Source: an archaeon BMS3Abin17 (GTDB lineage Archaea > Nanobdellota > Nanobdellia > Pacearchaeales > GW2011-AR1). Taken from it: 64,000 bases of DNA. The notes below the pieces were generated by a model. The model had not been told where the DNA came from. It saw only the letters and a list, made by a program, of their open reading frames with translations, and made no database searches. Below are positions 5,853 to 25,765 of the stretch, piece by piece (the stretch's first letter is position 1; the number at the start of each line of letters is the position of its first letter). The translations under genes were made by a program, and so were the position numbers. Location: positions 66,689 through 130,688 of the forward strand of contig BDTJ01000038.1 in assembly GCA_002897655.1 (NCBI GenBank), written 5' to 3'.

Positions 5853-6497
5853 ATGGAAAAGGGGATAAAAGCAGTTATTTTTGATGTTGGAGGGGTTTTG
5901 GCCCTCCAGAAAAATCCAAAAATTGTAAAACAAAGAGGAAACAAGACTTTCGGAGTCCACAAATATATCGCCAAGAAACTTGGCATAAGCATAGACCAGT
6001 GGTTTGATTCAGTTGATACTATTTATGCTCTGTCTATAGAAGGAAAAATATCTAAGAGAAAAGCTCTTAACGCTCTTTCTGAAAATGTAAAAATAAATGA
6101 AAAGAAAATGGAAAAAATTTTGTCCAATGCATATAAAAAGAATTTCACAACAAATAAGGAACTTTATAAAATAGCATTTAAATTAAAAAAACAGGGTTAT
6201 AAACTAGCACTTTTATCTGACCAATGGCACTTTTCTAAAGATATTCTAATGCCTAAAAGGCACATAAAACAGTTTAATGTATCTATTGCATCATGTAATG
6301 TTGGTATGAGAAAACCAAATCCCAAGATTTACAAACTTGCTCTTAAAAAATTAAAAACTCCTGCAAGACAAACTTTGTTTATTGATAACCAGATATGGAA
6401 TATAAAGCCAGCAAAAAAACTTGGAATAAATACAATCTTATTCAAGGATAATAAACAATTAATTAAAGATTTAAGAAAATTTGGGGTTGAGGTCTGA
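5853..6497 (+). CDS. HAD-superfamily hydrolase
   Basis: 214 aa; N-terminal DxG motif (VIFDVGGVLA) and C-terminal HAD motifs; divergent from treT. Confidence 0.6.
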   Translation: MEKGIKAVIFDVGGVLALQKNPKIVKQRGNKTFGVHKYIAKKLGISIDQWFDSVDTIYALSIEGKISKRKALNALSENVKINEKKMEKILSNAYKKNFTTNKELYKIAFKLKKQGYKLALLSDQWHFSKDILMPKRHIKQFNVSIASCNVGMRKPNPKIYKLALKKLKTPARQTLFIDNQIWNIKPAKKLGINTILFKDNKQLIKDLRKFGVEV

Positions 6498-7327
6498 TGA
6501 ATACTAAAGATTTCCTAGACAAAATAAAAATTGAATTAAAGATATCAAAAAACTCAGAATATACAATTAGGAATTACATTAACTCAAACCTGAGGTTTTT
6601 AAATTTCTCAAAAAAACAACCAGAAGATATAACAGAAGACGATATAAAATCATATCTTGCTGAGAATCTTAGTGAAAAAGCATCAACTTCAATCATTCTT
6701 TTCTTATCTGCAATAAAGTATTCATATCTTAATATTTTGAAGAGAGACCCAACTGCAGGAATTAAAAGACCTAAAAGAGAGAAAAGAATTCCAACAGTTT
6801 TAACAAAGGATGAGATAAAAAAACTCCTAAAGTCTTTTGATGCAAAAAAGTCAAAGTTAATGGTAAGTTTAATGTATGCTTGTGGAATGAGAGTATCAGA
6901 ATTATTAAATCTGGAAATTCAGAATTTTGATTTTGATGAGAAAATAGGGCATATTAGGCAAGCAAAAGGAAGAAAAGACAGGATTTTCAATATCCCTTTA
7001 TTTTTATTTGAAGATTTAAAAGATCAGGCAGATAAACAAAAGAAAGATAATCAAATTTATTTGTTTACAGGTCCGAAAGGGAAATTATCTCCAAGAAATC
7101 TTCAGAAGATTGTTTCAAAAGCAGCTAAGCGTGCAGAAATAAAGAAAGATGTACATTGTCACACTCTGCGTCATTCTTTTGCAACACATCTACTTGAAAA
7201 CAATATTGATATAAGAAAAATTCAGGAGCTTTTAGGACATGCTGACTTATCAACAACCCAGATATACACTCACATCTCAAAAGAAGAATTAAAAAAGATA
7301 AAATCCCCTTTAGATGAATTGATGTGA
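6497..7327 (+). CDS. Tyrosine recombinase/integrase, Xer-like
   Basis: 276 aa; C-terminal catalytic region HTLRHSFATHLLENNIDIRKIQELLGHADLSTTQIYTH (R..H..R..Y tetrad context). Confidence 0.8.
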   Translation: MNTKDFLDKIKIELKISKNSEYTIRNYINSNLRFLNFSKKQPEDITEDDIKSYLAENLSEKASTSIILFLSAIKYSYLNILKRDPTAGIKRPKREKRIPTVLTKDEIKKLLKSFDAKKSKLMVSLMYACGMRVSELLNLEIQNFDFDEKIGHIRQAKGRKDRIFNIPLFLFEDLKDQADKQKKDNQIYLFTGPKGKLSPRNLQKIVSKAAKRAEIKKDVHCHTLRHSFATHLLENNIDIRKIQELLGHADLSTTQIYTHISKEELKKIKSPLDELM

Positions 7328-7770
7328 ATATGGAAGACGAAATTGATAAATTAAAACAAGAAAACGAGAAACTTAAACAAGAAATAGAAGAATTAAAATC
7401 AAAAATAAGTGATAATAACAGAGGGGAAATTCAAAAAAAAGGAATGATGCAGAAGGCCTCTAAAGGAAACATCATGACAAGGCCTGCTTTTGGGTATAAA
7501 TTAGAGAATAGTAAACTAATCCCTGCAGAGAATTTTAGAGAAGTTGAAGAAATATTTGAGGAATTTCTAACAACAAATATTAGCCTGACTCAATTATCAA
7601 AGAAACATAATTTTTCGGTTAACGGATTAAAAAAGATACTGAAAAACTTTACATATATTGGAAAGATTAAATTCAATAACCAAATTCATGAAGGAAACCA
7701 TCAACCAATAATTTCATCAACTCTTTTTAATCATGTTCAGAATAAGTTAGAAAAAATAGGAATCAAATAA
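7324..7770 (+). CDS. Orphan 'Recombinase' (large-serine-recombinase DNA-binding) domain protein with N-terminal coiled coil
   Basis: 148 aa; GTG/ATG start overlapping Xer stop; region RPAFGYK...EVEEIFEEFL...HQPIISSTLFNHVQ matches the pattern of the PF07508-type recombinase domain (APYGY...EAEvVr.IF......HEPIIs.elFe.VQ) but no resolvase catalytic domain. Confidence 0.5.
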   Translation: MNMEDEIDKLKQENEKLKQEIEELKSKISDNNRGEIQKKGMMQKASKGNIMTRPAFGYKLENSKLIPAENFREVEEIFEEFLTTNISLTQLSKKHNFSVNGLKKILKNFTYIGKIKFNNQIHEGNHQPIISSTLFNHVQNKLEKIGIK

Positions 7771-10566: not shown

Positions 10567-11289
10567 TTATTTACTTATTTTCTTTGAGACTTCAGCCAGG
10601 TCTTTTTTCAGGGCATCAATAGATTTCTTAAGGATTTCTCCTGTTTCTAGCTGCCCAAAAGATTCAAGAGTGATTATTAAGCTGTTTACTGGAGTAATTT
10701 TTACATAATCTTTTTTTATTTTTCTGCATTTCTCAACACATGCTTCACAAAAGTCACACTTGTAAGCATCTTTAACAATAACTTTTCCATTCTCTAATTT
10801 TAATATTTCTTTTGGACATGTTTCTGCAATCTTTTTAGGGCAATCTTTGTCTACTTTTATATCAAAAACATTTCTATAAAACATTAAGCCAGGAGAAAAC
10901 TTAGAGTGTTCACTTCCTGTTCCAAAACCCGTTGTTGCTGTTGCTTCTAATTCCTGCCCCTTGCTTAAAGAGGTTATTGGAATTTTTCCATAAGCAACCT
11001 TGACTTTACCCTTGAACTCTCCTGAATAAACCATTCCTTCTTCTTTTGACTTTATTTTTAACTTCTCACTTTTTTTCTCATCAAGAGTTTTATCCATTTT
11101 TAAGGGAATCAATCCCATCCTATGGGCAATGGTCTCATCATATAATGGAGAATCATTTCTTGAAATTTCAACTTCATCTATAGCAATAACCTGAATCTGG
11201 TTCATATACCTCCGGATAGAATTAGCAAGACCCTCTTCAATATCTGCCTGGAAGGTTATTTGGTTGTCTTTTTTATTTATTATTTTCAT
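10567..11289 (-). CDS. rpoD: DNA-directed RNA polymerase subunit Rpo3 (RpoD) with 4Fe-4S-type cysteine cluster
   Basis: 240 aa; N-terminal dimerisation domain typical of RpoD/RPB3; CDFCEACVEKC cluster; located after rps11 as in archaeal operon. Confidence 0.85.
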   Translation of the reverse strand: MKIINKKDNQITFQADIEEGLANSIRRYMNQIQVIAIDEVEISRNDSPLYDETIAHRMGLIPLKMDKTLDEKKSEKLKIKSKEEGMVYSGEFKGKVKVAYGKIPITSLSKGQELEATATTGFGTGSEHSKFSPGLMFYRNVFDIKVDKDCPKKIAETCPKEILKLENGKVIVKDAYKCDFCEACVEKCRKIKKDYVKITPVNSLIITLESFGQLETGEILKKSIDALKKDLAEVSKKISK

Positions 11290-14481: not shown

Positions 14482-14769
14482 TTAGATTTTGTAGTTATAG
14501 TTATTTATTGATTGCAAAAGAAGTGTATTTATATCTCTATAAGAAATTTTATCTTTATCTTTTAAAGACCCAAATGATACTTTTTCGAGGTTTAAAACTT
14601 CAAGAAGTTCTCTATTTGCTATAATTGCATTTCTTAAACCATTCATATCATGTATCTTTGCCCCCCCTGGTGAGCGTCTTGCTAAATAATCATCTACTTC
14701 CTTTAACAGATCAATAACATTTCTTCCATTCACTATTTTCTCTAATTTTTTTCTTTCCATCTTACTCAT
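14482..14769 (-). CDS. Hypothetical protein
   Basis: 95 aa ORF overlapping the permease start by 8 nt (operonic). Confidence 0.3.
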   Translation of the reverse strand: MSKMERKKLEKIVNGRNVIDLLKEVDDYLARRSPGGAKIHDMNGLRNAIIANRELLEVLNLEKVSFGSLKDKDKISYRDINTLLLQSINNYNYKI

Positions 14770-15973
14770 ACCTCAAGGCATCAGCAACATTTGTCTTAGA
14801 TGCCTGCATTGCGGGAAGAACACCTGAAACAGCCCCGATTATAAATGCAAATCCTAAACATCCCCCAACCAACCATAAGGGAAAACTTACTTGCAACAAA
14901 TTTGTTCCAAGATTATTAATCGCAATATACTCAATTGTTTTTCCAATTCCCATGCCGAGCAAGACCCCCGCAATCCCTCCAACTAAACCCAGCATACCAG
15001 ATTCAATCAAGAAAATCTTTAATATGTCAGAATTTCTTGCCCCAATAGCTTTCATGACCCCTATTTCCTTTGTTCTTTCTAAGATGGAAGTATACATTGT
15101 GTTTGCAATTCCAATTGCTCCCACTAATAATGAGATTGCCGCAATTCCTGCTAAAAATACAGTTATTATATTAAGTATATTTCCAAAACTTTCTAAAAGC
15201 TCTTCAGGAGTCATAACATCAAACTCCTGATTGTCTTCTGTCTCTCCCCGAGCCTTTCTTAATTTTTCTTCTGTTCTTTTTGAAACTTCAACAACATCTT
15301 CTCCATCTTCAACCTGGACCATTATCCAATCAACTCTTTCAGGAATGCCAAATAACTCTCTAAAACTATCAATATCCATTAAAATCATCCTGTCATCATC
15401 TGGATTGCCAACTAATTCAAGAATTCCCCTTACTCTTACTTTTTTATCATTGAGAGTTATTTTGTCTCCCACATTTACAGGCCTTCCAAAAAGATTTCCT
15501 GTTTTATGAAGATTTCCTAGAATTACAGAATAACTATCCCCTTTTTCAAAAAGTCTTCCATCTTCTACTGCAATACCACTTTCTGTGTAAACTCCAAGAC
15601 TTTCAGGAGGTGCTCCCCAAACCAGATGATATCTTGTTGTTCCTGCAAATTCTACTTTTGCATTCCCTGCCACAAAATAAGAAATATCTTTTACTCCTCT
15701 GACTTTTAATATAGTATCAATATCATCTTCTGTAAGGATTACACTTTCAATACTCCCAGGAGGTCCTAAAAAACCAGTTGCAGGCTGGACAAAGAATTTA
15801 TCAGCTCCAAGAAGATTGAATTGTTCTTCTACTGCATTTTGTAACCCAAGCGATAAACTGATTAATATAAAAATTGTAGCAATTGAGATAAATATGCCAA
15901 TCATAGTAAGCCATGTTCGCAGCTTTCTCTTTCTTAAATTCTTCAATGCGAGACTGAAGTAATCTTTTAACAT
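14762..15973 (-). CDS. ABC transporter permease, MacB/FtsX-type (N-terminal TM, large extracytoplasmic domain, C-terminal FtsX 3-TM bundle)
   Basis: 403 aa; MLKDYFSLALKNLRKRKLRTWLTMIGIFISIATI... and C-terminal ...MKAIGARNSDILKIFLIESGMLGLVGGIAG... FtsX-like. Confidence 0.8.
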   Translation of the reverse strand: MLKDYFSLALKNLRKRKLRTWLTMIGIFISIATIFILISLSLGLQNAVEEQFNLLGADKFFVQPATGFLGPPGSIESVILTEDDIDTILKVRGVKDISYFVAGNAKVEFAGTTRYHLVWGAPPESLGVYTESGIAVEDGRLFEKGDSYSVILGNLHKTGNLFGRPVNVGDKITLNDKKVRVRGILELVGNPDDDRMILMDIDSFRELFGIPERVDWIMVQVEDGEDVVEVSKRTEEKLRKARGETEDNQEFDVMTPEELLESFGNILNIITVFLAGIAAISLLVGAIGIANTMYTSILERTKEIGVMKAIGARNSDILKIFLIESGMLGLVGGIAGVLLGMGIGKTIEYIAINNLGTNLLQVSFPLWLVGGCLGFAFIIGAVSGVLPAMQASKTNVADALRYE

Positions 15974-16308
15974 TTTTTGAGAAGTTCCCCCATAGATTCA
16001 GCAATTAGTAAATCTTTACGACTAGGATTAGGGGGTGCAAGAGCTATCTCCTTAATGTGCTCAGGATTTATTACGCCCTCTTTTGGCAAAATATCAACAT
16101 GTCCTGAATAAGCCACCACAATCTCCCAAACATTATTTCTATCCACTTTTATCCTATAATTTACATTATAACCCAACTCTTTTGCTCTGTCAAAATGTGG
16201 CTTTTCCTGTTTGAGAGTGTATAATATATCTTGATAAGGGATTCCAAGTTCTTTCATTCCATTAACAAGTTCTATTTCTGTATTAAAAACAAATTCTTCA
16301 ATTTTCAT
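15967..16308 (-). CDS. Hypothetical cytoplasmic protein (between paralogous permeases)
   Basis: 113 aa ORF, start overlaps the upstream permease stop. Confidence 0.4.
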   Translation of the reverse strand: MKIEEFVFNTEIELVNGMKELGIPYQDILYTLKQEKPHFDRAKELGYNVNYRIKVDRNNVWEIVVAYSGHVDILPKEGVINPEHIKEIALAPPNPSRKDLLIAESMGELLKKC

Positions 16309-16311
16309 CTT

Positions 16312-17529
16312 CTAACTCCTCAAGGCATCCACGACATTTAATTTACTTGCTTGTATTGCAGGAAGAATTCCCGACACAACTCCTACTACAAAAGCAAATG
16401 AGACTGAACCAATTAAAAGAGGATAAGATATTGTCACAAGAAATAAATTTCCCCCAAGAGCCTGATTTGCAAGAGCAGATATTCCCATTGCTGCCCCTAA
16501 ACCTATCAAAGCACCCACAATGCCTCCAACCAAACCCAACATACCAGATTCAATTAAAAATATCATCAAGACATCTTTATTTTGTGCTCCAATAGCTTTC
16601 ATAACTCCTATTTCTCTTGTCCTCTCTAATACAGACGTATACATTGTGTTTGCAATTCCAACACCACCAACAAACAATGAAATCATTGCAATCCCAATTA
16701 CAATTAAATTGATTATATTTAGGATAGTATTTACACTTGAGATTGCCTCTAAAGGAGTTTCTACTGTGAAACTTTCTTCACCTATTTTTTCTTTTCTATC
16801 ATTTCTTAATTTTCTCTCTATTTCTTTTGAAACATCTTCTATTTCATCCTTATCTTCAACCTGTGCAATAATCATATCATACTCATTTTCAATATCCATT
16901 AAGTCTTCTAAATCACTTGTTAATAGCAGGACAATGCTATTCATCTGAAAATTACTTGTTTTCTCAAGAAATCCTATTACTTCAAAATCTTTCCCATTAA
17001 TTTTTACTCTTTTTCCAACTCTCATTTCTCTTCCAAAATCCGGTGTTGTCATGAAATTGTTCCCAAGAAGAACCATTCCATTGTCACCCTGCTTAAGAAG
17101 CCTCCCTTCTTTTGCTTTAAATTTAAGGCTGTCATAAACAAACTCTGCATCTTCAGGGTCATCAGGAATATCTGCAGCATATCCAAATCCTTTTACCCCA
17201 TTATATTCAAGACTTCCAACCCTGATTAATCTGGTTACAACCTTATCAACTCCATTTATTCCCTCGATAATTCTTAAATCATCTTCATTTAATTTTTCAA
17301 CAACAGCACTTCCAGGAGGAGCAAATCCAGTTTGTTTATTTTGTATAGTTAGCCGGTCAACAGATAAAGCTCCAAACTGTCCTGTAACAGCTTCTTTTAG
17401 ACCTGCACCCATTGATATAAGAGCCACCACAGCTGCAATACCAATAAATATTCCAAGAATTGTCAGCCAGCTTCTTAAACCTCTGTGCCTTAAGTTTCCA
17501 AAAGCCAGTGAGAAATAGTCTTTGAGCAT
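16312..17529 (-). CDS. ABC transporter permease, MacB/FtsX-type (paralog of 14762..15973)
   Basis: 405 aa; same N- and C-terminal signatures (MLKDYFSLAFGNLRHRGLRSWLTILGIFIGIAAV... / ...MKAIGAQNKDVLMIFLIESGMLGLVGG...). Confidence 0.8.
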   Translation of the reverse strand: MLKDYFSLAFGNLRHRGLRSWLTILGIFIGIAAVVALISMGAGLKEAVTGQFGALSVDRLTIQNKQTGFAPPGSAVVEKLNEDDLRIIEGINGVDKVVTRLIRVGSLEYNGVKGFGYAADIPDDPEDAEFVYDSLKFKAKEGRLLKQGDNGMVLLGNNFMTTPDFGREMRVGKRVKINGKDFEVIGFLEKTSNFQMNSIVLLLTSDLEDLMDIENEYDMIIAQVEDKDEIEDVSKEIERKLRNDRKEKIGEESFTVETPLEAISSVNTILNIINLIVIGIAMISLFVGGVGIANTMYTSVLERTREIGVMKAIGAQNKDVLMIFLIESGMLGLVGGIVGALIGLGAAMGISALANQALGGNLFLVTISYPLLIGSVSFAFVVGVVSGILPAIQASKLNVVDALRS

Positions 17530-17534
17530 TGGAG

Positions 17535-17885
17535 TTACCTCCTACCAAACCTATCTATAAGTTCTTTAATACCCTTCCAAGGATCCATTTCATTATGATA
17601 ATTCAACATTTCTGCTTTTGCTTTATCTTCTGGATTATATGTATGGCCTGTTCCATAAATTAAACTTGAGGGGTTATCTGCTCTAAGTTTTTTTACATTT
17701 TCAACACTCAAACCATTAACATTAATATGATATCCATCATACCCTTTTGGAATTCCCTTAATTTCACGACCTTCTTTTATAACTATCTTTAAATTCTTGT
17801 TTTCTTCCATTTCTCCTTCTAATAATTCTTTAATATCATCACAAAGTCCAGGACCTTCACTACAAAGAACAAATATACTTTTCAT
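17535..17885 (-). CDS. Hypothetical protein
   Basis: 116 aa ORF in same operon. Confidence 0.35.
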   Translation of the reverse strand: MKSIFVLCSEGPGLCDDIKELLEGEMEENKNLKIVIKEGREIKGIPKGYDGYHINVNGLSVENVKKLRADNPSSLIYGTGHTYNPEDKAKAEMLNYHNEMDPWKGIKELIDRFGRR

Positions 17886-18157
17886 CTTTCAAATCCAGCT
17901 TTATCAAAAATTCTTCTTGTTTCCCTTTCTCCGAAATCTTTAATGATTCCTTTAACAATATTGCCATATTTATTAACATTAATATATTCAAAGGCAATTC
18001 GTCTATAGGTTTTATATTCTTGTAATCCTTGATTAAATGTTTCGGGTTGTGGAAGTTCTCTTGAGGATAAATCTTTTAATGTATTAATCTGTAATTTCAT
18101 AAGTTCATCTAACCCCTCTTTTAATTTTCTTGGTTTAATTCTGTATTTCATCTTCAA
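17882..18157 (-). CDS. Hypothetical protein
   Basis: 91 aa ORF, overlapping stops/starts with neighbours. Confidence 0.35.
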   Translation of the reverse strand: MKMKYRIKPRKLKEGLDELMKLQINTLKDLSSRELPQPETFNQGLQEYKTYRRIAFEYINVNKYGNIVKGIIKDFGERETRRIFDKAGFER

Positions 18158-19020
18158 GCCTCCTTCTTAGAATTCTTTCTTCGTTTCTTTATTCTTCTAT
18201 AAATTATCCAAACAATAATTATAACTGCAACAATTCCATAAGTTGTGTAATTAGATTTCTTGATTAAACCCAATTCAAGAGCCTTTTCTCTTGAATAAAC
18301 TTTTACAGGAAGAGTTATTGTTTCTGTTTGCTCTTGATTATCAAAATCCTTGTAGGTTATTTTTGCAGTTATGCTTGCACTTGTTTTTTCAAAAATAACC
18401 TCAAATGTAGCTAATTCAAAATCATCAGAATCAATTGTTCCAACATATTCTTCCTTACTTGACAAAATTTCTAGACCACTATCTGACGTAATCTTAACAT
18501 TAACAAATCCAACATCACCTAATCCTGAGTTGATTATCTTAATAGAAACTTTTCCTTGCTCTCCAGCAACATTGTTTTTTGCTTCAACAGCATAGCTTAT
18601 TTCTGTTTTTGCACCCACAGTAACACCGATACTCCCTGTTCTTGTTTTTTCCTCATCATCTGAATCTAGGTAAGTAAGTGTATAGGGAATATTATAATCT
18701 CCTGGTTTAATATTAGAAGGAGCTTTTAATGTAAAGCTAAATGTTTCTTTATCATCTTCATTAATTTCATCTTCACTATCTTCAGAACTTCCAACACTTG
18801 TAAAAGAAGTATTTTCTAATTCTAATACAAGAGAAACATCTGTAACATCTCCATTAAGTGTGTTCTTGACTTCCACTTTTAGTGAAGCACTTTGCCCGGG
18901 ATACAACTCCCCCACTTCAACAGAATTAATTATCATTGATGATGCAAGGCTTATGCTTAACAATACTGCGAATATGCTGATAACTATTAAATTAAATTTT
19001 GTTTTCATTTTATCCTCCAA
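18154..19020 (-). CDS. Cell-surface protein with signal peptide, tandem Ig-like/CARDB-like beta domains and C-terminal TM anchor
   Basis: 288 aa; N-terminal hydrophobic signal, beta-rich T/S/V repeats, C-terminal TM followed by RRIKKRRKNSKK. Confidence 0.5.
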   Translation of the reverse strand: MEDKMKTKFNLIVISIFAVLLSISLASSMIINSVEVGELYPGQSASLKVEVKNTLNGDVTDVSLVLELENTSFTSVGSSEDSEDEINEDDKETFSFTLKAPSNIKPGDYNIPYTLTYLDSDDEEKTRTGSIGVTVGAKTEISYAVEAKNNVAGEQGKVSIKIINSGLGDVGFVNVKITSDSGLEILSSKEEYVGTIDSDDFELATFEVIFEKTSASITAKITYKDFDNQEQTETITLPVKVYSREKALELGLIKKSNYTTYGIVAVIIIVWIIYRRIKKRRKNSKKEA

Positions 19021-19330
19021 AACTACCTCTACTCTTCTTTTGTTCTCCTAAAACAATTTTATCACGTTTAAAGTAAAATCGGGGGTCTTCCTCTATTTTT
19101 ATAAGACTTTTTTCAAGGAGTCCTTCCACAGCCTCTCTTGCAGCGGTTAATCCAATATCTCCTTGACTAGTACGTCTTGCATCCAAACCCCTTGCCAAAT
19201 ATGCATCCATATAAACACTTCTCAAATCCTTAATAATCTCTTCAATCCTATGATATTTTTTAGGATAAGCCTTAACTAAAAGCAATGCTTCATCTTCATA
19301 TTCTGTTAATTTTTCATCCATTTTCTTCAA
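19010..19330 (-). CDS. Putative winged-helix DNA-binding protein
   Basis: 106 aa; first gene of the minus-strand operon; weak wHTH-like pattern only. Confidence 0.3.
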   Translation of the reverse strand: MKKMDEKLTEYEDEALLLVKAYPKKYHRIEEIIKDLRSVYMDAYLARGLDARRTSQGDIGLTAAREAVEGLLEKSLIKIEEDPRFYFKRDKIVLGEQKKSRGSFGG

Positions 19331-19423
19331 TTATCCTTTACATCAATCCTTTATAAATATTACTATATTGTTACCTCTCCACAATAACTACAGGATGGAA
19401 AAGTTTATAAATCCCAAATTTAT

Positions 19424-20101
19424 ATGAAAATCATGACAAAGAAATCAAAAAGCATTTACACACCTTCTGTAATAATAGAAGGATTTTGGGAGATTCCAGG
19501 AGTTAATTATAAAGGCAAAAATAAAACTTACAGGATTTTTGAAAAAATGGCTCCTGCAATGAATCATGATGATTTAACAGAGTATTCTATTAAAGAAAAG
19601 AAAGAAGGAAATCCTCATCTAGCAGATTCTATTTTACATTTTTCTATTTTTGATGCATCTTATAAACTTAGAAATAAGCACTCACAAGATATTGAAGGGC
19701 TTAGAAAATTTCTTCAATCAAGCCTTAGGAAATATCCAAATACTTCTACAAGAGTAGTTTATAATCCTCAAGAAGAATTAGATAACATAATTCATAATTA
19801 TGGAACTCCTGATGAATACATTTTAAGAGGAAATTTTGTTGGAGATGATGGTTGGATTAGAAACATAAAGCATAAAAAAGTTTTAACATCTCTTTTAGGG
19901 ACAGATAATATTAAAAAAATAAATGAAATTTCTCAATGGTTAACTAACACTAATACTTATCTTTGGAGATTAAATTCAAAACCACTACAAAAAGACGAGG
20001 GAGTTGTCGGGTTCGGCGCCTATTCCCTCAGGCTTAGCCTCTACTGCGACAGGTTTCCCGCTAATTGGTGTCCTGCTTTTCGGGTATTAGAAGTTAAATA
20101 A
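19424..20101 (+). CDS. Hypothetical protein (3-prime end may be spurious, overlaps GC-rich repeat copy 1)
   Basis: 225 aa ORF, no recognisable domain; last ~30 codons lie in a GC-rich segment repeated non-codingly downstream. Confidence 0.35.
   Translation: MKIMTKKSKSIYTPSVIIEGFWEIPGVNYKGKNKTYRIFEKMAPAMNHDDLTEYSIKEKKEGNPHLADSILHFSIFDASYKLRNKHSQDIEGLRKFLQSSLRKYPNTSTRVVYNPQEELDNIIHNYGTPDEYILRGNFVGDDGWIRNIKHKKVLTSLLGTDNIKKINEISQWLTNTNTYLWRLNSKPLQKDEGVVGFGAYSLRLSLYCDRFPANWCPAFRVLEVK
20003..20090. repeat. GC-rich 88-nt element, copy 1 (candidate structured RNA / element boundary)
   Basis: ~55% GC in a ~30% GC genome; ~80% identical to 20588-20675. Confidence 0.5.
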
Positions 20102-20587
20102 GCTTGAAGTTTTGCTCGCCGGCAGAAAATTATAAAAGATTTCTGGATTTAAGGGAACTGCAAGATAAATTCCACAATTTAGTATTTGACGCTTGTAAAT
20201 TTTGGGTGGTTGTTATAAGTAATTAATTAAGGAACAATTAGTGAAAGGGTGTTCGCTCTAAGATATTAAGAGTTAATAGATTACAATAATCTCGGAGATA
20301 AGTAAGGCAGTAATTATCTTCTAAAATTAGCTTAACATCAACACAAAAAAATTTAAATGAGTTTTTCTTGTTATTCTTGCTCAAAAAGTTTTCTTCCTTG
20401 AGCAAGAAGGAAACTAGATGGATTACACGCCATTTAACTAGCACATTATTAAGATTTATTTTAAGTCATGAAATTCAACCCCGACAATTAGTAGTTGAAA
20501 AATTATGAAAATTGAAGGAGTGGTGCTTCCTTTGAAGAAATTCACTGACTAGGAGACTCCCTATAGGAGAAGTTAATTGGCTATAAG

Positions 20588-20675
20588 TTGTCAGGTTCAA
20601 CGCCAATTCCAACAGGCTTAACCTCAACTGCAACAGGAATCCCGCTAATAGGTATCCTGCTTTTCGAATAGTCTA
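20588..20675. repeat. GC-rich 88-nt element, copy 2
   Basis: Direct imperfect repeat of 20003-20090; intergenic. Confidence 0.5.
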
Positions 20676-20701
20676 TCTGGGCATTTTTATAAGAAGAATT
20701 A

Positions 20702-21430
20702 TTATTTACAGCTCTTCATAGGCTGTTTTTTCCACTTATTCTTGATTTTTCTCTCAATACACTCGACTTTTCCGTCTTTGAGTTTGTATATTATTTTTGC
20801 GTGTTTTCTTGCTAATTCCGGATCATGAGTAACTATAATTATTGTTTTCCCTTTTTTGTTCAGGTTATCCAAAAATTTCATTACATTCTCACCAGTCTTT
20901 GTATCAAGATTTCCTGTAGGCTCATCTGCTAAGATAACTTCAGGATTATTTGAAAGGGCTCTTGCAATAGCAACTTTTTGCTGTTGCCCTCCTGAAAGCT
21001 GATTAGGATAATGATCCATTCTGTCTTTTAAATCAACAAGTTTGAGCAACTCTTCTGCCCTTTCTCTTCTCTCTTCTTCTGAAATTTCCTGAAACAGCAT
21101 AGGAAGCATAATATTCTCTTTTGCAGTAAGATTAGGAATTAGATTAAACTGCTGAAAAATAAAACCAACTTTCTTACCTCTTATCTGGGCTAAATCAGAT
21201 TCACTCAAATCCTTTATATCCTGCCCACCAAGATAAATATCTCCTTTTGTAGATAAGTCAAGACTTCCAATAAGATTCATCCCAGTTGACTTTCCACTAC
21301 CACTAGGCCCCATTATAGCAATAAAATCTCCTTCTTCTATTGAGATATTAACACCATCAAGTGCCTTGATTGTCTCTTCTCCCATCTCATAGTATTTTGC
21401 TGCATTTTTCAGTTCAATTATATTCTTCAT
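20702..21430 (-). CDS. ABC transporter ATP-binding protein (MacB/LolD-type)
   Basis: 242 aa; Walker [10 protein letters not shown], signature [15 protein letters not shown], Walker B ILADEPT, H-loop. Confidence 0.85.
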
Positions 21431-21587
21431 AAAATTAAGCTATGCCCTTTATATTTAAATCTAACTAATAACCAATAGCAAGTTTTAAAAAATAAACAAA
21501 AGGTTTAAAAAACACTTTCAATCTCTATAATATAAGTAAATTTAGATTAATTAATATAGTTAATAGGAGCTTAAAATCATTATACCG

Positions 21588-22264: not shown

Positions 22265-22960
22265 ATGAATTATGAAGAAATCTTAAAAAATGAAAAGAAG
22301 TCTAAAATTCTAGTAAGAATAGTTGCCCATTTAATGGGAGATGGTTGCGTGACAAAAAGATATTTTGCTTATTACAATAAAGATAAAATTTTATTAGAAA
22401 ATTTTGAAAAAGATGTTCTTAATCTTTTTAAGAAGATTCATTTCACTCGTGGCAGGACTAATTCTGGAACAAGTTTTTTAATGATACAAAACAAACCATT
22501 ACTCAATTTCTTAAAATCATTAATCAGTGATTATAGAAGCCATCATTTATATCTCCCTAAATTTATTAAGAATAAAGAATTTCAAAAAGAGTTCTCACAA
22601 TCATTTTATGATGACGAAGGATGTGTCGCTTTAAGGATTTTTAAGAAGACTAAGGAGACTAAGGAGACTAAGGAGATTAAGAGAAATGTAACCTTATCAT
22701 CTAATTCGTTAAAACTAATACAAGAGATTAAACAAATATTAAAAAACACTTTTGAAATAGAGTCAAATAAAATATCTAAATATGTCAAGAAAAGAGATTC
22801 AAAGATATATATCAATTATGTTTTATCTATTACCGGAAGAGATAATTTTGTAAAATTTAGAGATAAAATCAATTTTACCCACCCAACCAAAAGTAGAACG
22901 TTAGATAAGATGATTGCTTCATATATTAGAATAGTAAAGTTTAAAAATAAAGATAAATAG
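22265..22960 (+). CDS. Free-standing double-motif LAGLIDADG homing endonuclease-like protein
   Basis: 231 aa; motif 1 AHLMGDGCV, motif 2 FYDDEGCVAL; KETKETKETKEIK linker encoded by tandem 9-nt repeat. Confidence 0.7.
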   Translation: MNYEEILKNEKKSKILVRIVAHLMGDGCVTKRYFAYYNKDKILLENFEKDVLNLFKKIHFTRGRTNSGTSFLMIQNKPLLNFLKSLISDYRSHHLYLPKFIKNKEFQKEFSQSFYDDEGCVALRIFKKTKETKETKEIKRNVTLSSNSLKLIQEIKQILKNTFEIESNKISKYVKKRDSKIYINYVLSITGRDNFVKFRDKINFTHPTKSRTLDKMIASYIRIVKFKNKDK

Positions 22961-22968
22961 ATATCTTT

Positions 22969-23083
22969 GAAGACGGCCATAGTAGTTAGGAAACACCTGT
23001 TCCCATTCCGAACACAGATAGTTAAGCTAATTACGTCGTTTGTATTAGTGCCCTACAAGGTGCGAAGCATCGATGCTGTCTTT
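22969..23083 (+). rRNA. 5S ribosomal RNA
   Basis: Contains CCCATTCCGAACACAG and GTTAAGC motifs of archaeal 5S; helix I AGACGGC/GCTGTCT; ends approximate. Confidence 0.8.
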
Positions 23084-23230
23084 CACTTTTTCCTTTTTAA
23101 ATCTTGCTGCCTAATTTTTATTCTTATATAATGAATAATAATGCTTAAAAATAGAATTTAGATGATTTTAATAGGGCAGGAGTAATCAGTGACAAGTCTT
23201 TCGGGATTTACACTGGCTTGTTCTGCCTTT

Positions 23231-24372: not shown

Positions 24373-24404
24373 GTAATTCCTAAACCTAATTTATATTTAA
24401 AAAA

Positions 24405-24704
24405 CTATAGAAAACTAAACAATCCTTTCTGTATGATTAAAATACCTACTATAATGCCTATTATTGAGGGGATTGATACTACTGTGAGCAGAATAAATAT
24501 CCCGCCTGTTATGAAATCAATCCAGCTTGCAAAGTCTTTTAGCAATCCAAGAGAGGCCTTGGTCAAAAGAATAATTCCTAATATTAGAAAAACCTTGCTA
24601 GAAAGACTGGCTCTCAATATTAAGATTAATCCTGCAATTATATCAATTATCCCAAATGCTTTCAATAACATCATTTTTAAATAAACCGTACATTTAAAAA
24701 ACAT
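24405..24704 (-). CDS. Small integral membrane protein, hypothetical
   Basis: 99 aa, 3 predicted TM helices; annotated start abuts tRNA-Arg, true start may be internal Met. Confidence 0.3.
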   Translation of the reverse strand: MFFKCTVYLKMMLLKAFGIIDIIAGLILILRASLSSKVFLILGIILLTKASLGLLKDFASWIDFITGGIFILLTVVSIPSIIGIIVGILIIQKGLFSFL

Positions 24705-24831
24705 GCGCTTGTAGCTCAGTTGGATTAGAGCGCGTCCCTCCTAACTTCAAGAACGCAAGTTCTTGGGGTGCTCACGATTGCAGAGCAATAGAGACAGGAC
24801 GAAGTCGTAGGTTCAAGTCCTACCAAGCGCG
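24705..24831 (+). tRNA. tRNA-Arg (anticodon CCU) with ~52-nt intron at canonical 37/38 position
   Basis: Hand fold: acceptor GCGCTTG/CAAGCGC, D arm GCTC-AGTTGGATTA-GAGC, anticodon stem CGTCC/GGACG, loop CTCCTA|intron|A, T arm GTAGG-TTCAAGT-CCTAC; followed by T7 run. Confidence 0.75.
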
Positions 24832-24922: not shown

Positions 24923-25765
24923 ATGCCTATTTTTATAAAACTAAAAGATAATGATAGGATTAAGTTATTTAGGTCAATAAAAGAAAAAATAAATATTTCT
25001 TGGGATAGTTTTTATCCTTCATTAGGTATAAGACGTTCCATGTTTTTCCATTATTTATCTGGAAAACATAATTTACCTCAAAAATTATTTTTTAAACTAG
25101 AAAGAATAGCAAGATTAAAGATAAGTAATTATGGAGAGGTCAAGCAAGTTAAATATGTAAAAAAAGAAATCAGAGAACCTAAAATGGATATATTTCTTGC
25201 TGAAATTCTTGGAGTACTTAATGGGGATGGGCATATTTCTAATTTTAAATATGAAGTCTGTGTGGTTGGAGATATTAAAGAAAAGAAATATAGTAATTAT
25301 TTGAAGAAACTATTTGAAAAAACATTCGGGATTTCATTTACAATTTATAAAGGAAAATCTTATTTTAAACTTAGAAATTATTCAAAAGAGATTTCCTGTC
25401 TTCTAACTAAAAAATATAATTTGCCAAAAGGAAATAAGATTGGAAAATTAAGAATTCCAAAACAAGTATTAAAATCAAACAATTTACTTATAGCTTATAT
25501 TAGAGGGTTATATGATACCGATGGAAGTTTTTATATAAGAAGGAAGAAAGAACCAGTGGTTCAAATAACAAGTGCAGATTCTTTATTTTTAAGTGAAATT
25601 AGAGATGCTTTAATCTCCTTGAATTTTAATGCAGTCAAGGGAAATCAAAGAATTTTTATATATACAAAAAATCACATTGATAACTTTTTCAAAATCATAA
25701 GACCCGCAAACTCCAAACATTTAAAAAAGTATCAAAATTACCTTAAATTAAGTAAGCGTGGGTAG
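24923..25765 (+). CDS. Free-standing double-motif LAGLIDADG homing endonuclease-like protein with N-terminal extension
   Basis: 280 aa; motif 1 ILGVLNGDGHIS, motif 2 IRGLYDTDGSFYI; ~90 aa N-terminal region of unknown (possibly DNA-binding) function. Confidence 0.7.
   Translation: MPIFIKLKDNDRIKLFRSIKEKINISWDSFYPSLGIRRSMFFHYLSGKHNLPQKLFFKLERIARLKISNYGEVKQVKYVKKEIREPKMDIFLAEILGVLNGDGHISNFKYEVCVVGDIKEKKYSNYLKKLFEKTFGISFTIYKGKSYFKLRNYSKEISCLLTKKYNLPKGNKIGKLRIPKQVLKSNNLLIAYIRGLYDTDGSFYIRRKKEPVVQITSADSLFLSEIRDALISLNFNAVKGNQRIFIYTKNHIDNFFKIIRPANSKHLKKYQNYLKLSKRG

What the first reader, a model, noticed from the sequence alone, without database searches (positions are those of the whole stretch)
20003..20690. 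Pair of GC-rich 88-nt imperfect direct repeats that look like structured RNA rather than coding sequence
Segments 20003-20090 and 20588-20675 are ~80% identical. They are ~55% GC in a genome that is ~30% GC elsewhere, the usual mark of structured RNA or a recently acquired element. Copy 1 forms the last ~30 codons of ORF 19424..20101. When copy 2 is aligned in the same frame, almost every difference hits codon positions 1 or 2 (ggg>agg, ggc>aac, tat>aat, ctc>aac, tac>aac, gac>aac, ttt>aat, tgg>agg). That is the opposite of what purifying selection on a protein gives, so the conserved unit is the nucleotide sequence. The ~500 nt between the copies contain a perfect 11-bp stem (ttcttgctcaa / ttgagcaagaa, 20371-20411) and further palindromes. 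The locus sits beside an Rpp21-like RNase P protein gene and rpoN, and separates the ABC ATPase from its permeases. Candidates are a novel or divergent ncRNA, the ends of a small integrated element, or a duplicated RNA domain. I could not match it to RNase P, SRP RNA, C/D or tRNA consensus by eye.
Basis: seen in the sequence. Interest (0 to 1): 0.6.

Follow-up and report, generated by a model that had tools for sequence, protein, structure and literature searches.

The report
Archaeal hypermutation cassette lacking its enzyme
The two GC-rich repeats are the variable and template repeats of a diversity-generating retroelement, a known system that rewrites the tip of a binding protein through error-prone reverse transcription; the unusual point is that its template RNA is a stand-alone gene with no reverse transcriptase within 64 kb.

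Summary
The repeat is real: 20002-20082 and 20586-20666, 81 nt, 84% identical. It is not a duplicated structured RNA. All 13 mismatches are an adenine in copy 2 against a non-adenine in copy 1. All fall on codon positions 1 or 2 of ORF 19424-20101. This is the signature of a diversity-generating retroelement (DGR). Copy 1 is the variable repeat (VR) at the 3' end of a target gene, and copy 2 is the non-coding template repeat (TR). The target protein models as a C-type-lectin fold; its best structural match is the Nanoarchaeota DGR protein AvpA. It is Rfam RT-16 (20381-20589, 90 bits), lying between the copies and ending at the TR. Covarying helices enclose the TR, with a conserved archaeal promoter upstream and a T-run downstream. 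A 99.87%-identical strain differs at 13 VR positions, all of them TR adenines, so diversification was recent. No reverse transcriptase (RT) gene occurs in the window, nor in about 29 related stretches with the same layout. Four more distant relatives carry target, RT-16, TR and RT in that order. The RT is probably supplied from elsewhere in the genome; this is inferred. DGRs are a known kind and are known in DPANN archaea. The RT-less stand-alone TR RNA gene is a moderate variant.

The parts
19424..20101 (+). DGR target gene. It encodes a 225-aa variable protein with a C-type-lectin fold and no Pfam family.
20002..20082 (+).
   Evidence: 13/13 mismatches to the TR lie at TR adenines. Strain L001 differs from the window at 13 VR positions, all of them TR adenines.
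20071..20086 (+). IMH-like 3' end of the VR (TCCTGCTTTTCGGGTA). It is adenine-free and ends in a fixed GGTA.
   Evidence: GG is found in all VRs and AA in all TRs at this spot across the 13 loci examined. This matches the DUSEL4 pattern TGGGGT versus TGGAAT (PMC4372165). Its function is inferred.
20114..20119 (+). Conserved GCTCGC box about 12-17 nt after the target stop codon. Role unknown.
   Evidence: Present in the window and in L002, L003, L009, L011, L012, L013 and L015. No stable hairpin is predicted here.
20345..20358 (+). Putative archaeal BRE/TATA promoter (AAAAAAATTTAAAT) of the TR RNA gene.
   Evidence: The motif (A)nTTTAAA(C/T) is conserved about 26 nt upstream of GC(C/T)CA in the RT-less loci. 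Promoter activity is inferred.
20379..20688 (+). Inferred TR RNA transcription unit, about 310 nt: 5' terminal-helix strand, P1, helix a, P2 domain, TR, a', terminal strand and T-run.
   Evidence: The MFE z-score is -3.34. The transcript ends are inferred, not measured.
20381..20589 (+). RT-16 RNA (Rfam RF03019).
   Evidence: 90.3 bits against a gathering score of 50, E 2.3e-14, full-length match. The same family is found at the same position in 14 related loci.
20429..20439 (+). P2 long-range helix, 5' strand. It pairs with 20571-20581.
   Evidence: 11 pairs, 5 of them with compensatory changes.
20571..20581 (+). P2 long-range helix, 3' strand. It ends 4 nt before the TR.
20416..20425 (+). 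Helix a, 5' strand (AGATGGATTA). It pairs with the 10 nt just after the TR.
   Evidence: 92.5% of cells are paired. 7 of 10 pairs show compensatory change. 0/500 shuffles reach the observed value, and slid controls give 31-39%.
20586..20666 (+). It is non-coding and carries 22 adenines in 8 AAY, 4 AGG and 1 TAT codon equivalents.
   Evidence: It is identical in strains L001 and L036. No ORF covers it on the + strand.
20655..20670 (+). IMH*-like 3' end of the TR (TCCTGCTTTTCGAATA).
20669..20678 (+). Helix a', 3' strand (TAGTCTATCT).
20678..20688 (+). Terminal-helix 3' strand TGGGC, pairing with GCTCA at 20379-20383, followed by a T5 run that is the likely archaeal terminator.
   Evidence: 90% of cells paired and 5 of 7 pairs compensatory, but the alignment was anchored by hand. 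GGGC followed by a T-rich stretch, usually a T-run, occurs in most of the RT-less loci.

Best explanation
This is a diversity-generating retroelement (DGR) cassette in a DPANN archaeon.

Shown:
- Copy 2 (TR, 20586-20666) is a non-coding template.
- Copy 1 (VR, 20002-20082) encodes the ligand-facing end of a C-type-lectin-fold protein (ORF 19424-20101).
- The two copies differ only where the TR has adenine.
- The TR codons are of the AAY/AGG/TAT type, so adenine substitutions give about 8e11 protein variants and no stop codons.
- The TR is embedded in a roughly 310-nt RNA. The 5' two-thirds of that RNA is Rfam RT-16.
- Covarying helices abut both ends of the TR: P2 at the 5' end and helix a/a' at the 3' end. 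A short terminal helix closes the whole RNA.
- A near-identical strain carries a different VR, changed only at TR-adenine positions.

Inferred:
- The RNA is transcribed from its own BRE/TATA promoter and ends at a T-run.
- A DGR-type reverse transcriptase (RT) binds the RT-16 scaffold.
- The RT starts cDNA synthesis at the TR 3' end (IMH* ...CGAATA), misincorporates opposite adenines, and stops at the P2 helix.
- The cDNA then replaces the VR by homing that is directed by the adenine-free IMH end (...CGGGTA).

The window holds no RT gene, so the enzyme must be encoded elsewhere in the genome and act in trans. I put the probability of this step at about 0.65.
For: - **Adenine specificity.** All 13 mismatches are TR-A to VR-non-A and lie at codon positions 1 or 2. 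P = 1.3e-9.
- **Codon design.** The TR has 8 AAY, 4 AGG and 1 TAT codon, and no stop codon can arise in the VR reading frame downstream of the first repeat codon.
- **Same signature in relatives.** It is seen in 14 related loci and in 20 metagenome loci, where 154 of 166 mismatches are at TR adenines.
- **Recent activity.** L001 is 99.865% identical to the window over 20,678 nt. Of its 28 differences, 13 lie in VR 20016-20066, all at TR-A positions, while the TR is unchanged. P for this clustering is 1.8e-24.
- **RNA scaffold.** RT-16 scores 90.3 bits, with covariation in P2, in helix a/a' and in the terminal helix.
- **Complete cassettes in relatives.** The order target, RT-16, TR, RT (with GN[LY]TSQ...YVDD motifs) occurs in L023, L024, L028 and L019.
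- **Experimental analogue.** In the Bordetella phage DGR RNP, the TR is looped out between a template:primer duplex and a duplex formed by sequences upstream and downstream of the TR. The authors predict such duplexes in 207 of 278 DGRs, a set spanning phyla including Nanoarchaeota (10.1101/2023.10.23.563531).
Against: - No RT gene or RT fragment is present in the 64-kb window. tblastn gives a best E of 5-9. A profile HMM run with --max gives a best E of 0.18.
- The neighbouring small ORFs show no Pfam match, so no Avd is evident.
- No hairpin or cruciform is predicted downstream of the VR (z +1.25).
- Transcription, cDNA synthesis and homing were not observed.
- The VR difference between strains could be an older allele exchanged by recombination rather than a fresh homing event. 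A recombination tract does exist at 24491-24563.
Confidence: 0.85

Rival explanations
1. Fossil DGR. The cassette was once served by an adjacent RT that has been lost. The TR and VR are decaying relics and no diversification occurs now.
For: No RT in the window and none in any of about 29 same-type stretches. Paul et al. 2015 raised the 'fossil' option for RT-less DGR fragments in Nanoarchaeota (PMC4372165).
Against: - The VR was rewritten at 13 TR-A sites between strains that are 99.87% identical.
- The TR is identical in three strains.
- The promoter, P2, helix a/a' and the terminal helix are kept by compensatory changes across divergent RT-less loci.
- AAY codons are intact and mismatches remain 93-100% A-specific. 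A relic would accumulate non-A differences.
Confidence: 0.12
2. The RT is not encoded by this genome at all. It is supplied by a co-resident mobile element, a virus, or the host of this episymbiotic archaeon.
For: RT-bearing relatives can sit next to an integrase-like gene, as in L023.
Against: IMG/VR holds no relative of the target family. Nothing here links this RNA to a virus. More than 7,800 related RT proteins were found, and the few that carry a source name are mostly from Nanoarchaeota/Woesearchaeota-type archaea, so a chromosomal copy elsewhere is the simpler reading.
Confidence: 0.08
3. One reading: the two repeats are copies of a novel structured ncRNA domain, or the ends (att-like) of a small integrated element.
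For: The GC content is high relative to the genome. A real structured RNA lies between the copies.
Against: - The mismatches are unidirectional and adenine-specific, with no compensatory pattern within the repeats.
- Copy 1 is conserved coding sequence in a lectin fold.
- Only about 500 nt lie between the copies, with no integrase there.
- Rfam finds no RNA family covering copy 1, and touches copy 2 only by the 4-nt 3' end of the RT-16 match.
Confidence: 0.01
4. Copy 2 is a decayed duplicate, that is, a pseudogene fragment of the 3' end of ORF 19424-20101.
For: It is a non-coding copy of a coding segment and has no ORF.
Against: Decay would give substitutions of all types on both copies. Instead 13 of 13 are A in copy 2. 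Copy 2 is invariant between strains while copy 1 varies. Copy 2 always follows RT-16 in relatives.
Confidence: 0.01

Closest known systems
Nanoarchaeota (DUSEL4) DGRs and their variable protein AvpA (PDB 5ioo; Paul et al. 2015, PMC4372165)
   Same: - The host is a DPANN archaeon.
- The IMH/IMH* distinction is GG versus AA (searches compared).
- The theoretical diversity is of similar size.
- RT-less partial cassettes were also reported there.
   Different: - Sequence identity to AvpA is only 10% over the aligned residues, and there is no Pfam or sequence-level link.
- The partial DUSEL4 cassettes were described as target plus VR only. Here the RT-less unit keeps its own TR, RNA scaffold, promoter and terminator.
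- No GRA-loop hairpin was found here.
Bordetella phage BPP-1 DGR RNA (avd-TR-Sp) and its RNP structure (10.1101/2023.10.23.563531; PMC6182149)
   Same: The TR is flanked by RNA segments that pair with each other, so the TR is looped out next to a second helix. The mutagenesis is adenine-specific, and the codons are of the AAY type.
   Different: - In BPP-1 the structured RNA (Sp, about 140 nt, Rfam RT-10 region) lies 3' of the TR, and only about 10-20 nt are needed 5' of it. Here about 200 nt of structure (RT-16) lie 5' of the TR and only about 20 nt lie 3'.
- No Avd gene and no RT gene are nearby.
- The priming nucleotide is unknown.
Rfam RT-16 RNA (RF03019; Weinberg et al. 2017, PMC5737381)
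   Same: Full-length match well above the gathering score.
   Different: The family was described only as a motif 'nearby to RT genes', with retron or DGR roles as speculation. Here it is tied to the 5' flank of a DGR TR. It extends beyond the Rfam model through two further covarying helices that enclose the TR. It occurs without any nearby RT.
DGRs with remote target genes (Treponema denticola, Legionella; Wu et al. 2018, PMC5758913)
   Same: DGR components act across genomic distance. The avd, TR and brt components work in trans experimentally.
   Different: In those systems the remote part is the VR or target, while the TR stays with the RT. Here the TR and its RNA scaffold stay with the target, and the RT is the remote part.

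Membership tests
Diversity-generating retroelement (DGR) | A TR/VR repeat pair whose mismatches are (almost) all adenine in the TR | tested here: met
   13 of 13 mismatches, P 1.3e-9.
Diversity-generating retroelement (DGR) | The VR lies inside (usually at the 3' end of) a protein-coding target gene, and the TR is non-coding | tested here: met
   The VR is the last ~30 codons of ORF 19424-20101. No + strand ORF covers the TR.
Diversity-generating retroelement (DGR) | A DGR-clade reverse transcriptase gene in the cassette (usually within about 5-20 kb) | tested here: not met
   No RT in the 64 kb by motif search, tblastn or profile HMM. RTs with GNxTSQ...YVDD are adjacent only in the distant relatives L019, L023, L024 and L028. 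Filing this as a DGR cassette therefore rests on the other features, and RT supply in trans is inferred.
Diversity-generating retroelement (DGR) | TR adenines placed in AAY-type codons so that mutagenesis avoids stop codons | tested here: met
   8 AAY, 4 AGG and 1 TAT codon. No stop codon is reachable within the VR reading frame downstream of the first repeat codon.
Diversity-generating retroelement (DGR) | IMH at the VR 3' end that differs from IMH* at the TR 3' end | tested here: met
   CGGGTA (VR) versus CGAATA (TR), fixed across the 13 loci examined. Function not tested.
Diversity-generating retroelement (DGR) | A hairpin or cruciform downstream of the VR | tested here: inconclusive
   No stable structure in 20060-20160 (z +1.25). 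Only a conserved GCTCGC box is seen.
Diversity-generating retroelement (DGR) | An Avd accessory protein | tested here: not met
   The small neighbouring ORFs have no Pfam hit. No Avd-like ORF is seen next to the RT in L023 or L024 (by inspection only). Not all DGRs have Avd.
Diversity-generating retroelement (DGR) | Variable residues displayed on a C-type-lectin (or Ig) fold | tested here: met
Diversity-generating retroelement (DGR) | Evidence of actual diversification | tested here: met
   13 VR differences, all at TR-A sites, between strains 99.865% identical. Hypervariable columns across homologues.
Rfam RT-16 RNA (RF03019) | Covariance-model score at or above the gathering threshold | tested here: met
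   90.3 bits against 50, model positions 1-158 of 158.
Rfam RT-16 RNA (RF03019) | Location near a reverse transcriptase gene | tested here: not met
   No RT in the window. Met in L019, L023, L024 and L028.
BPP-1-type DGR RNA architecture | A duplex between sequences upstream and downstream of the TR ('cPRT Stop' type) | tested here: met
   Helix a/a' at 20416-20425/20669-20678: 92.5% paired, 7 of 10 pairs compensatory. Equivalence of role is inferred.
BPP-1-type DGR RNA architecture | Cis-priming from a specific adenosine 2'-OH in the flanking RNA | not testable with these tools
   Needs biochemistry.
Classical ncRNAs (tRNA, RNase P, SRP, C/D box) | A match to the family covariance model over the repeats | tested here: not met
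   Rfam at E<=10 over 19000-21500 gives only RT-16 plus noise. ARAGORN finds nothing here.
Integrated element bounded by att direct repeats | Repeats flank an element that carries an integrase or cargo | tested here: not met
   Only about 500 nt of non-coding RNA gene lie between the copies.

The most novel reading that the evidence does not exclude
In one clade of DPANN archaea the DGR has been split. Each target gene keeps a private, self-contained 'programming RNA' gene made of a promoter, the RT-16 scaffold, the TR and a terminator. A single reverse transcriptase encoded far away, or on another replicon, serves these modules in trans. RT-anchored DGR surveys would miss such cassettes systematically, so the true extent of targeted hypermutation in DPANN genomes would be underestimated. 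The scaffold is also permuted relative to the Bordetella paradigm, with the structured RNA lying 5' of the TR rather than 3'.
Probability: 0.55. Interest if true: 0.55.

Novelty: new variant of a known kind. Interest (0 to 1): 0.4.

Why it matters
It turns an apparently odd repeat into a clear case of programmed protein hypermutation in an ultra-small archaeon, with direct evidence of recent activity between near-identical strains.

It gives the orphan Rfam motif RT-16 a concrete role as the 5' scaffold of a DGR template RNA. It also extends that structure by two covarying helices that enclose the template.

The cassette works, or recently worked, with no reverse transcriptase within 64 kb. 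The same RT-less layout recurs in about 29 related stretches of DNA. This suggests that DGR template RNAs can be dispersed stand-alone genes. If so, pipelines that start from RT genes undercount DGR targets, and the RT-16/TR RNA together with a relative's RT would be a compact two-part system for testing trans-acting mutagenic retrohoming.

Tried and rejected
- **Sigma-70 promoter and terminator scan.** Irrelevant for an archaeon. Replaced by comparing upstream regions across loci.
- **Hairpin or cruciform downstream of the VR.** Nothing better than shuffled sequence.
- **Regex for RT motifs.** Found only unrelated enzymes in the window.
- **Finding the RT of the same genome.** The RT family search returned more than 7,800 proteins with no usable organism label. 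Walking out from the window ends gave 5 kb more on one side (ISL3 transposase, no RT) and under 2 kb on the other.
- **IMG/VR scan for the target family.** Nothing found.
- **Supplement of the RT-motif paper and Paul et al. 2017.** Neither is held.
- **Second mismatch cluster at 24491-24563 as a possible second VR.** Rejected. The changes are mostly synonymous, sit in a small membrane-protein gene, are not A-specific, and have no TR-like copy.
- **The two A/G differences at 20083-20084 as mutagenised sites.** Rejected. GG in the VR and AA in the TR are fixed in every locus examined, so they mark IMH/IMH*.
Full report
**Observation.** The window is 31.1% GC. It holds an ungapped direct repeat of 81 nt, at 20002-20082 and 20586-20666, with 68/81 identical bases and a spacing of 584. 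GC content is 55.6% for copy 1 and 46.9% for copy 2. Copy 1 forms the last ~30 codons of ORF 19424-20101. The decisive extra fact is the direction of the differences: all 13 are adenine in copy 2 and a non-adenine base in copy 1 (6 G, 6 T, 1 C). With 22 adenines among 81 positions, the chance of this is 1.3e-9.

**What it is.** Unidirectional, adenine-specific differences between a non-coding repeat and the 3' end of a gene define a diversity-generating retroelement (DGR). Copy 2 is the template repeat (TR) and copy 1 is the variable repeat (VR).
- In the frame of the target gene, the TR reads as 8 AAY, 4 AGG and 1 TAT codon among invariant codons. Adenine substitution gives about 8e11 protein variants and cannot create a stop within the VR reading frame downstream of the first repeat codon.
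- The homology continues two codons further. There the VR has GG and the TR has AA in every locus examined. These positions are fixed, not mutagenised. They correspond to the IMH/IMH* distinction reported for Nanoarchaeota DGRs, TGGGGT versus TGGAAT (PMC4372165).

**The target protein.** The 225-aa product has no Pfam match.
- It has 19 homologues at 38-96% identity, plus relatives in 24 genome loci, 23 of them in Nanoarchaeota, Woesearchaeota, Pacearchaeota or unclassified archaeal MAGs.
- In the alignment the N-terminal 190 residues are ordinarily conserved. The C-terminus alternates invariant framework residues (F197, A199, then PAFRVL.V) with fully variable columns.
- An AlphaFold model built from this alignment is confident (pLDDT 90.2).
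- The VR therefore sits on the fold that DGRs typically diversify.

**The structured RNA.**
- Rfam finds RT-16 RNA (RF03019) at 20381-20589: 90.3 bits against a gathering score of 50, full length, ending at the first bases of the TR.
- RT-16 is one of 19 motifs described only as lying near reverse transcriptase genes. The authors speculated that such motifs belong to retrons or DGRs (PMC5737381).
- RT-16 passes threshold at the same place, between target stop codon and TR, in 14 related loci. All 14 show the A-specific TR/VR signature, some with two to four VRs per TR.

Comparison of these loci shows three helices around the TR.
- **P2.** The Rfam long-range helix, 20429-20439 with 20571-20581, covaries (5 of 11 pairs compensatory). 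It ends 4 nt before the TR.
- **Helix a/a'.** This helix is not in the Rfam model. It joins 20416-20425 to the ten bases just after the TR, 20669-20678. It is 92.5% paired, 7 of 10 pairs have compensatory changes, 0 of 500 shuffles reach the observed value, and slid controls give 31-39%.
- **Terminal helix.** A short helix joins GCTCA (20379-20383) to TGGGC (20678-20682). It is 90% paired with 5 of 7 pairs compensatory. I anchored two divergent sequences by eye, which favours pairing.

About 26 nt upstream of the 5' strand lies a conserved A-run plus TTTAAA(C/T) motif, typical of an archaeal BRE/TATA promoter (window 20345-20358). After the 3' strand comes a T-run (20684-20688). Its 5' arm overlaps the presumed transcript start, it is not conserved, and it competes with the conserved P1 hairpin.

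**How it most likely works.** The following is inferred from the anatomy and from the Bordetella phage system.
- In the Bordetella RNP, the TR is looped out between the template:primer duplex and an adjacent duplex made by sequences upstream and downstream of the TR. This duplex positions priming and stops the polymerase. The authors predict such distal duplexes in 207 of 278 DGRs, in a set that spans phyla including Nanoarchaeota (10.1101/2023.10.23.563531).
- Here helices a/a' and P2 are neighbours on the 5' strand, separated by CACG. They hold the 85-nt TR as a loop between their 3' strands, which is the same topology.
- I therefore propose the following sequence of events. A roughly 310-nt RNA (about 20379-20688) is made from its own promoter. 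A DGR reverse transcriptase binds the RT-16 scaffold and begins cDNA at the TR 3' end. It misincorporates opposite adenines and halts at P2. The cDNA then replaces the VR, with the adenine-free IMH end setting the boundary.
- Unlike Bordetella, nearly all of the structured RNA lies 5' of the TR, and only about 20 nt lie 3' of it.

**Activity.**
- Contig L001, from a marine metagenome, matches window 9424-30101 without gaps at 99.865% identity, with 28 differences. Thirteen of these lie in VR positions 20016-20066. Every one is at a TR-adenine position, and the TR is identical. The binomial P for the clustering is 1.8e-24.
- A third strain, L036, has the window's VR.
- The VR was therefore rewritten, or a differently rewritten allele was exchanged, very recently.
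- The other cluster of differences (24491-24563) is a mostly synonymous tract in a small membrane-protein gene and is unrelated.

**The missing enzyme.**
- The window has no reverse transcriptase. A motif scan found none. tblastn with three relatives' RTs gave a best E of 5-9. A profile of 40 DPANN DGR RTs run without filters against every ORF of 40 aa or more gave a best E of 0.18.
- Four more distant relatives (L019, L023, L024, L028) carry the full order of target, RT-16, TR and RT, with the GN[LY]TSQ and YVDD motifs. In these, the sequence after helix a' runs into the RT start codon.
- In the window and in the nearer relatives (L002, L003, L007, L009, L011-L013, L015, L017), the RNA instead ends in GGGC followed by a T-rich stretch, usually a T-run, and unrelated genes follow.
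- A metagenome scan with the TR 3' 20-mer returned 20 more loci. None has an RT, although 14 have 1.1-8.5 kb downstream. Every locus with enough upstream DNA has a target homologue with a VR. Of their TR-VR mismatches, 154 of 166 are at TR adenines.
- That pattern was taken from the RT-less type, so the scan shows how widespread the type is, not its frequency among all DGRs.
- The promoter, the helices and the AAY codons are conserved across these divergent RT-less loci. Together with the recent VR turnover, this argues that they are functional and served by an RT encoded elsewhere.
- I could not test this. The species is absent from the genome collection, and the flanks I could reach hold no RT.

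**Comparison with what is known.**
- DGRs in DPANN archaea are established (PMC4372165; PMC5758913).
- Remote targets are known, and the Bordetella components work in trans from a plasmid.
- RT-less partial cassettes in Nanoarchaeota were noted and left open as either fossils or trans targets.
- What is added here is threefold. RT-16 is the 5' scaffold of a DGR template RNA. The scaffold extends into two further covarying helices that enclose the TR. A whole clade keeps this RNA as a stand-alone gene next to the target, with the RT absent from the neighbourhood.
- No Avd gene and no VR-proximal hairpin were found.

**Verdict.** The finding is a DGR TR/VR pair, with confidence about 0.97 for that identity. 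It is a known kind of system in a known host group, so the basic finding is not surprising to a specialist. The stand-alone template RNA gene without a nearby RT, and the permuted RNA layout, make it a moderate new variant. Interest 0.4.

Noticed in passing
window 24491-24563: The window has nine differences from L001 within 73 nt. L036 carries the same L001-type tract here (9 of its 10 differences from the window lie in 24400-24599). Over the surrounding 7-20 kb the three sequences are otherwise about 99.9% identical. The tract lies in a small (~88 aa) membrane-protein ORF on the minus strand, and the changes are mostly synonymous (only T>A, I>V, T>S). This looks like a short recombination tract, not DGR activity.
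   Followed up: yes
window 20114-20119 (and 12-17 nt after the target stop in L002, L003, L009, L011, L012, L013, L015): A conserved GCTCGC box lies in the non-coding DNA just downstream of the DGR target gene. No conserved hairpin is found around it. It may be a cis element for homing or for mRNA 3' end formation.
   Followed up: partly
window 20102-20345: A 244-nt spacer separates the target stop codon from the TR-RNA promoter. It has no counterpart in relatives, whose spacers appear much shorter (RT-16 begins about 105 nt after the VR in L002 and L012, against about 300 nt in the window). It matches only the same-species contigs L001 and L036. Origin unknown.
   Followed up: partly
window 14762-21430: The DGR cassette is on the + strand inside a minus-strand MacB-type ABC transporter cluster. 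That cluster has two FtsX/MacB_PCD permeases, a CARDB-domain protein, small ORFs and the ATPase. The cassette separates the ATPase from the rest. Relatives of the cassette sit in quite different neighbourhoods (after FtsZ, DNA primase or RNase HII), so the module seems to move.
   Followed up: partly
window 24705-24831: Rfam calls a 127-nt tRNA (54.3 bits) that ARAGORN did not report. It presumably contains an intron.
   Followed up: no
window 22265-23084 and 24923-25765: Two free-standing LAGLIDADG-like ORFs are present (the second assigned through its L001 counterpart, a weak Pfam hit). The first ends 9 nt before a solitary 5S rRNA gene (22969-23084, 69.4 bits).
   Followed up: no
L023 5485-12119: This relative has four tandem C-type-lectin-type target genes, each with its own VR (8-12 mismatches per VR, nearly all at TR adenines). 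They are served by one RT-16/TR/RT unit. An ORF that looks integrase-like by eye (not domain-tested) lies about 1.7 kb downstream, so this may be a mobile multi-target cassette.
   Followed up: partly
L003 10001-18473: One RT-16/TR unit (18118-18473) matches two VRs 7.4 kb apart (10570-10650 and 17929-18006), with no RT on the 20.7 kb fetched from this 25.6-kb contig.
   Followed up: partly
window 6497-7767: Adjacent tyrosine-integrase-like (Phage_integrase) and Recombinase-domain ORFs lie next to ribosomal protein genes. Pfam assignments come from the identical contig L030.
   Followed up: no
L033 342-1331 (about 4 kb beyond the window's right end): An ISL3-family transposase gene sits at the end of the 127-kb contig that carries this window.
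   Followed up: no
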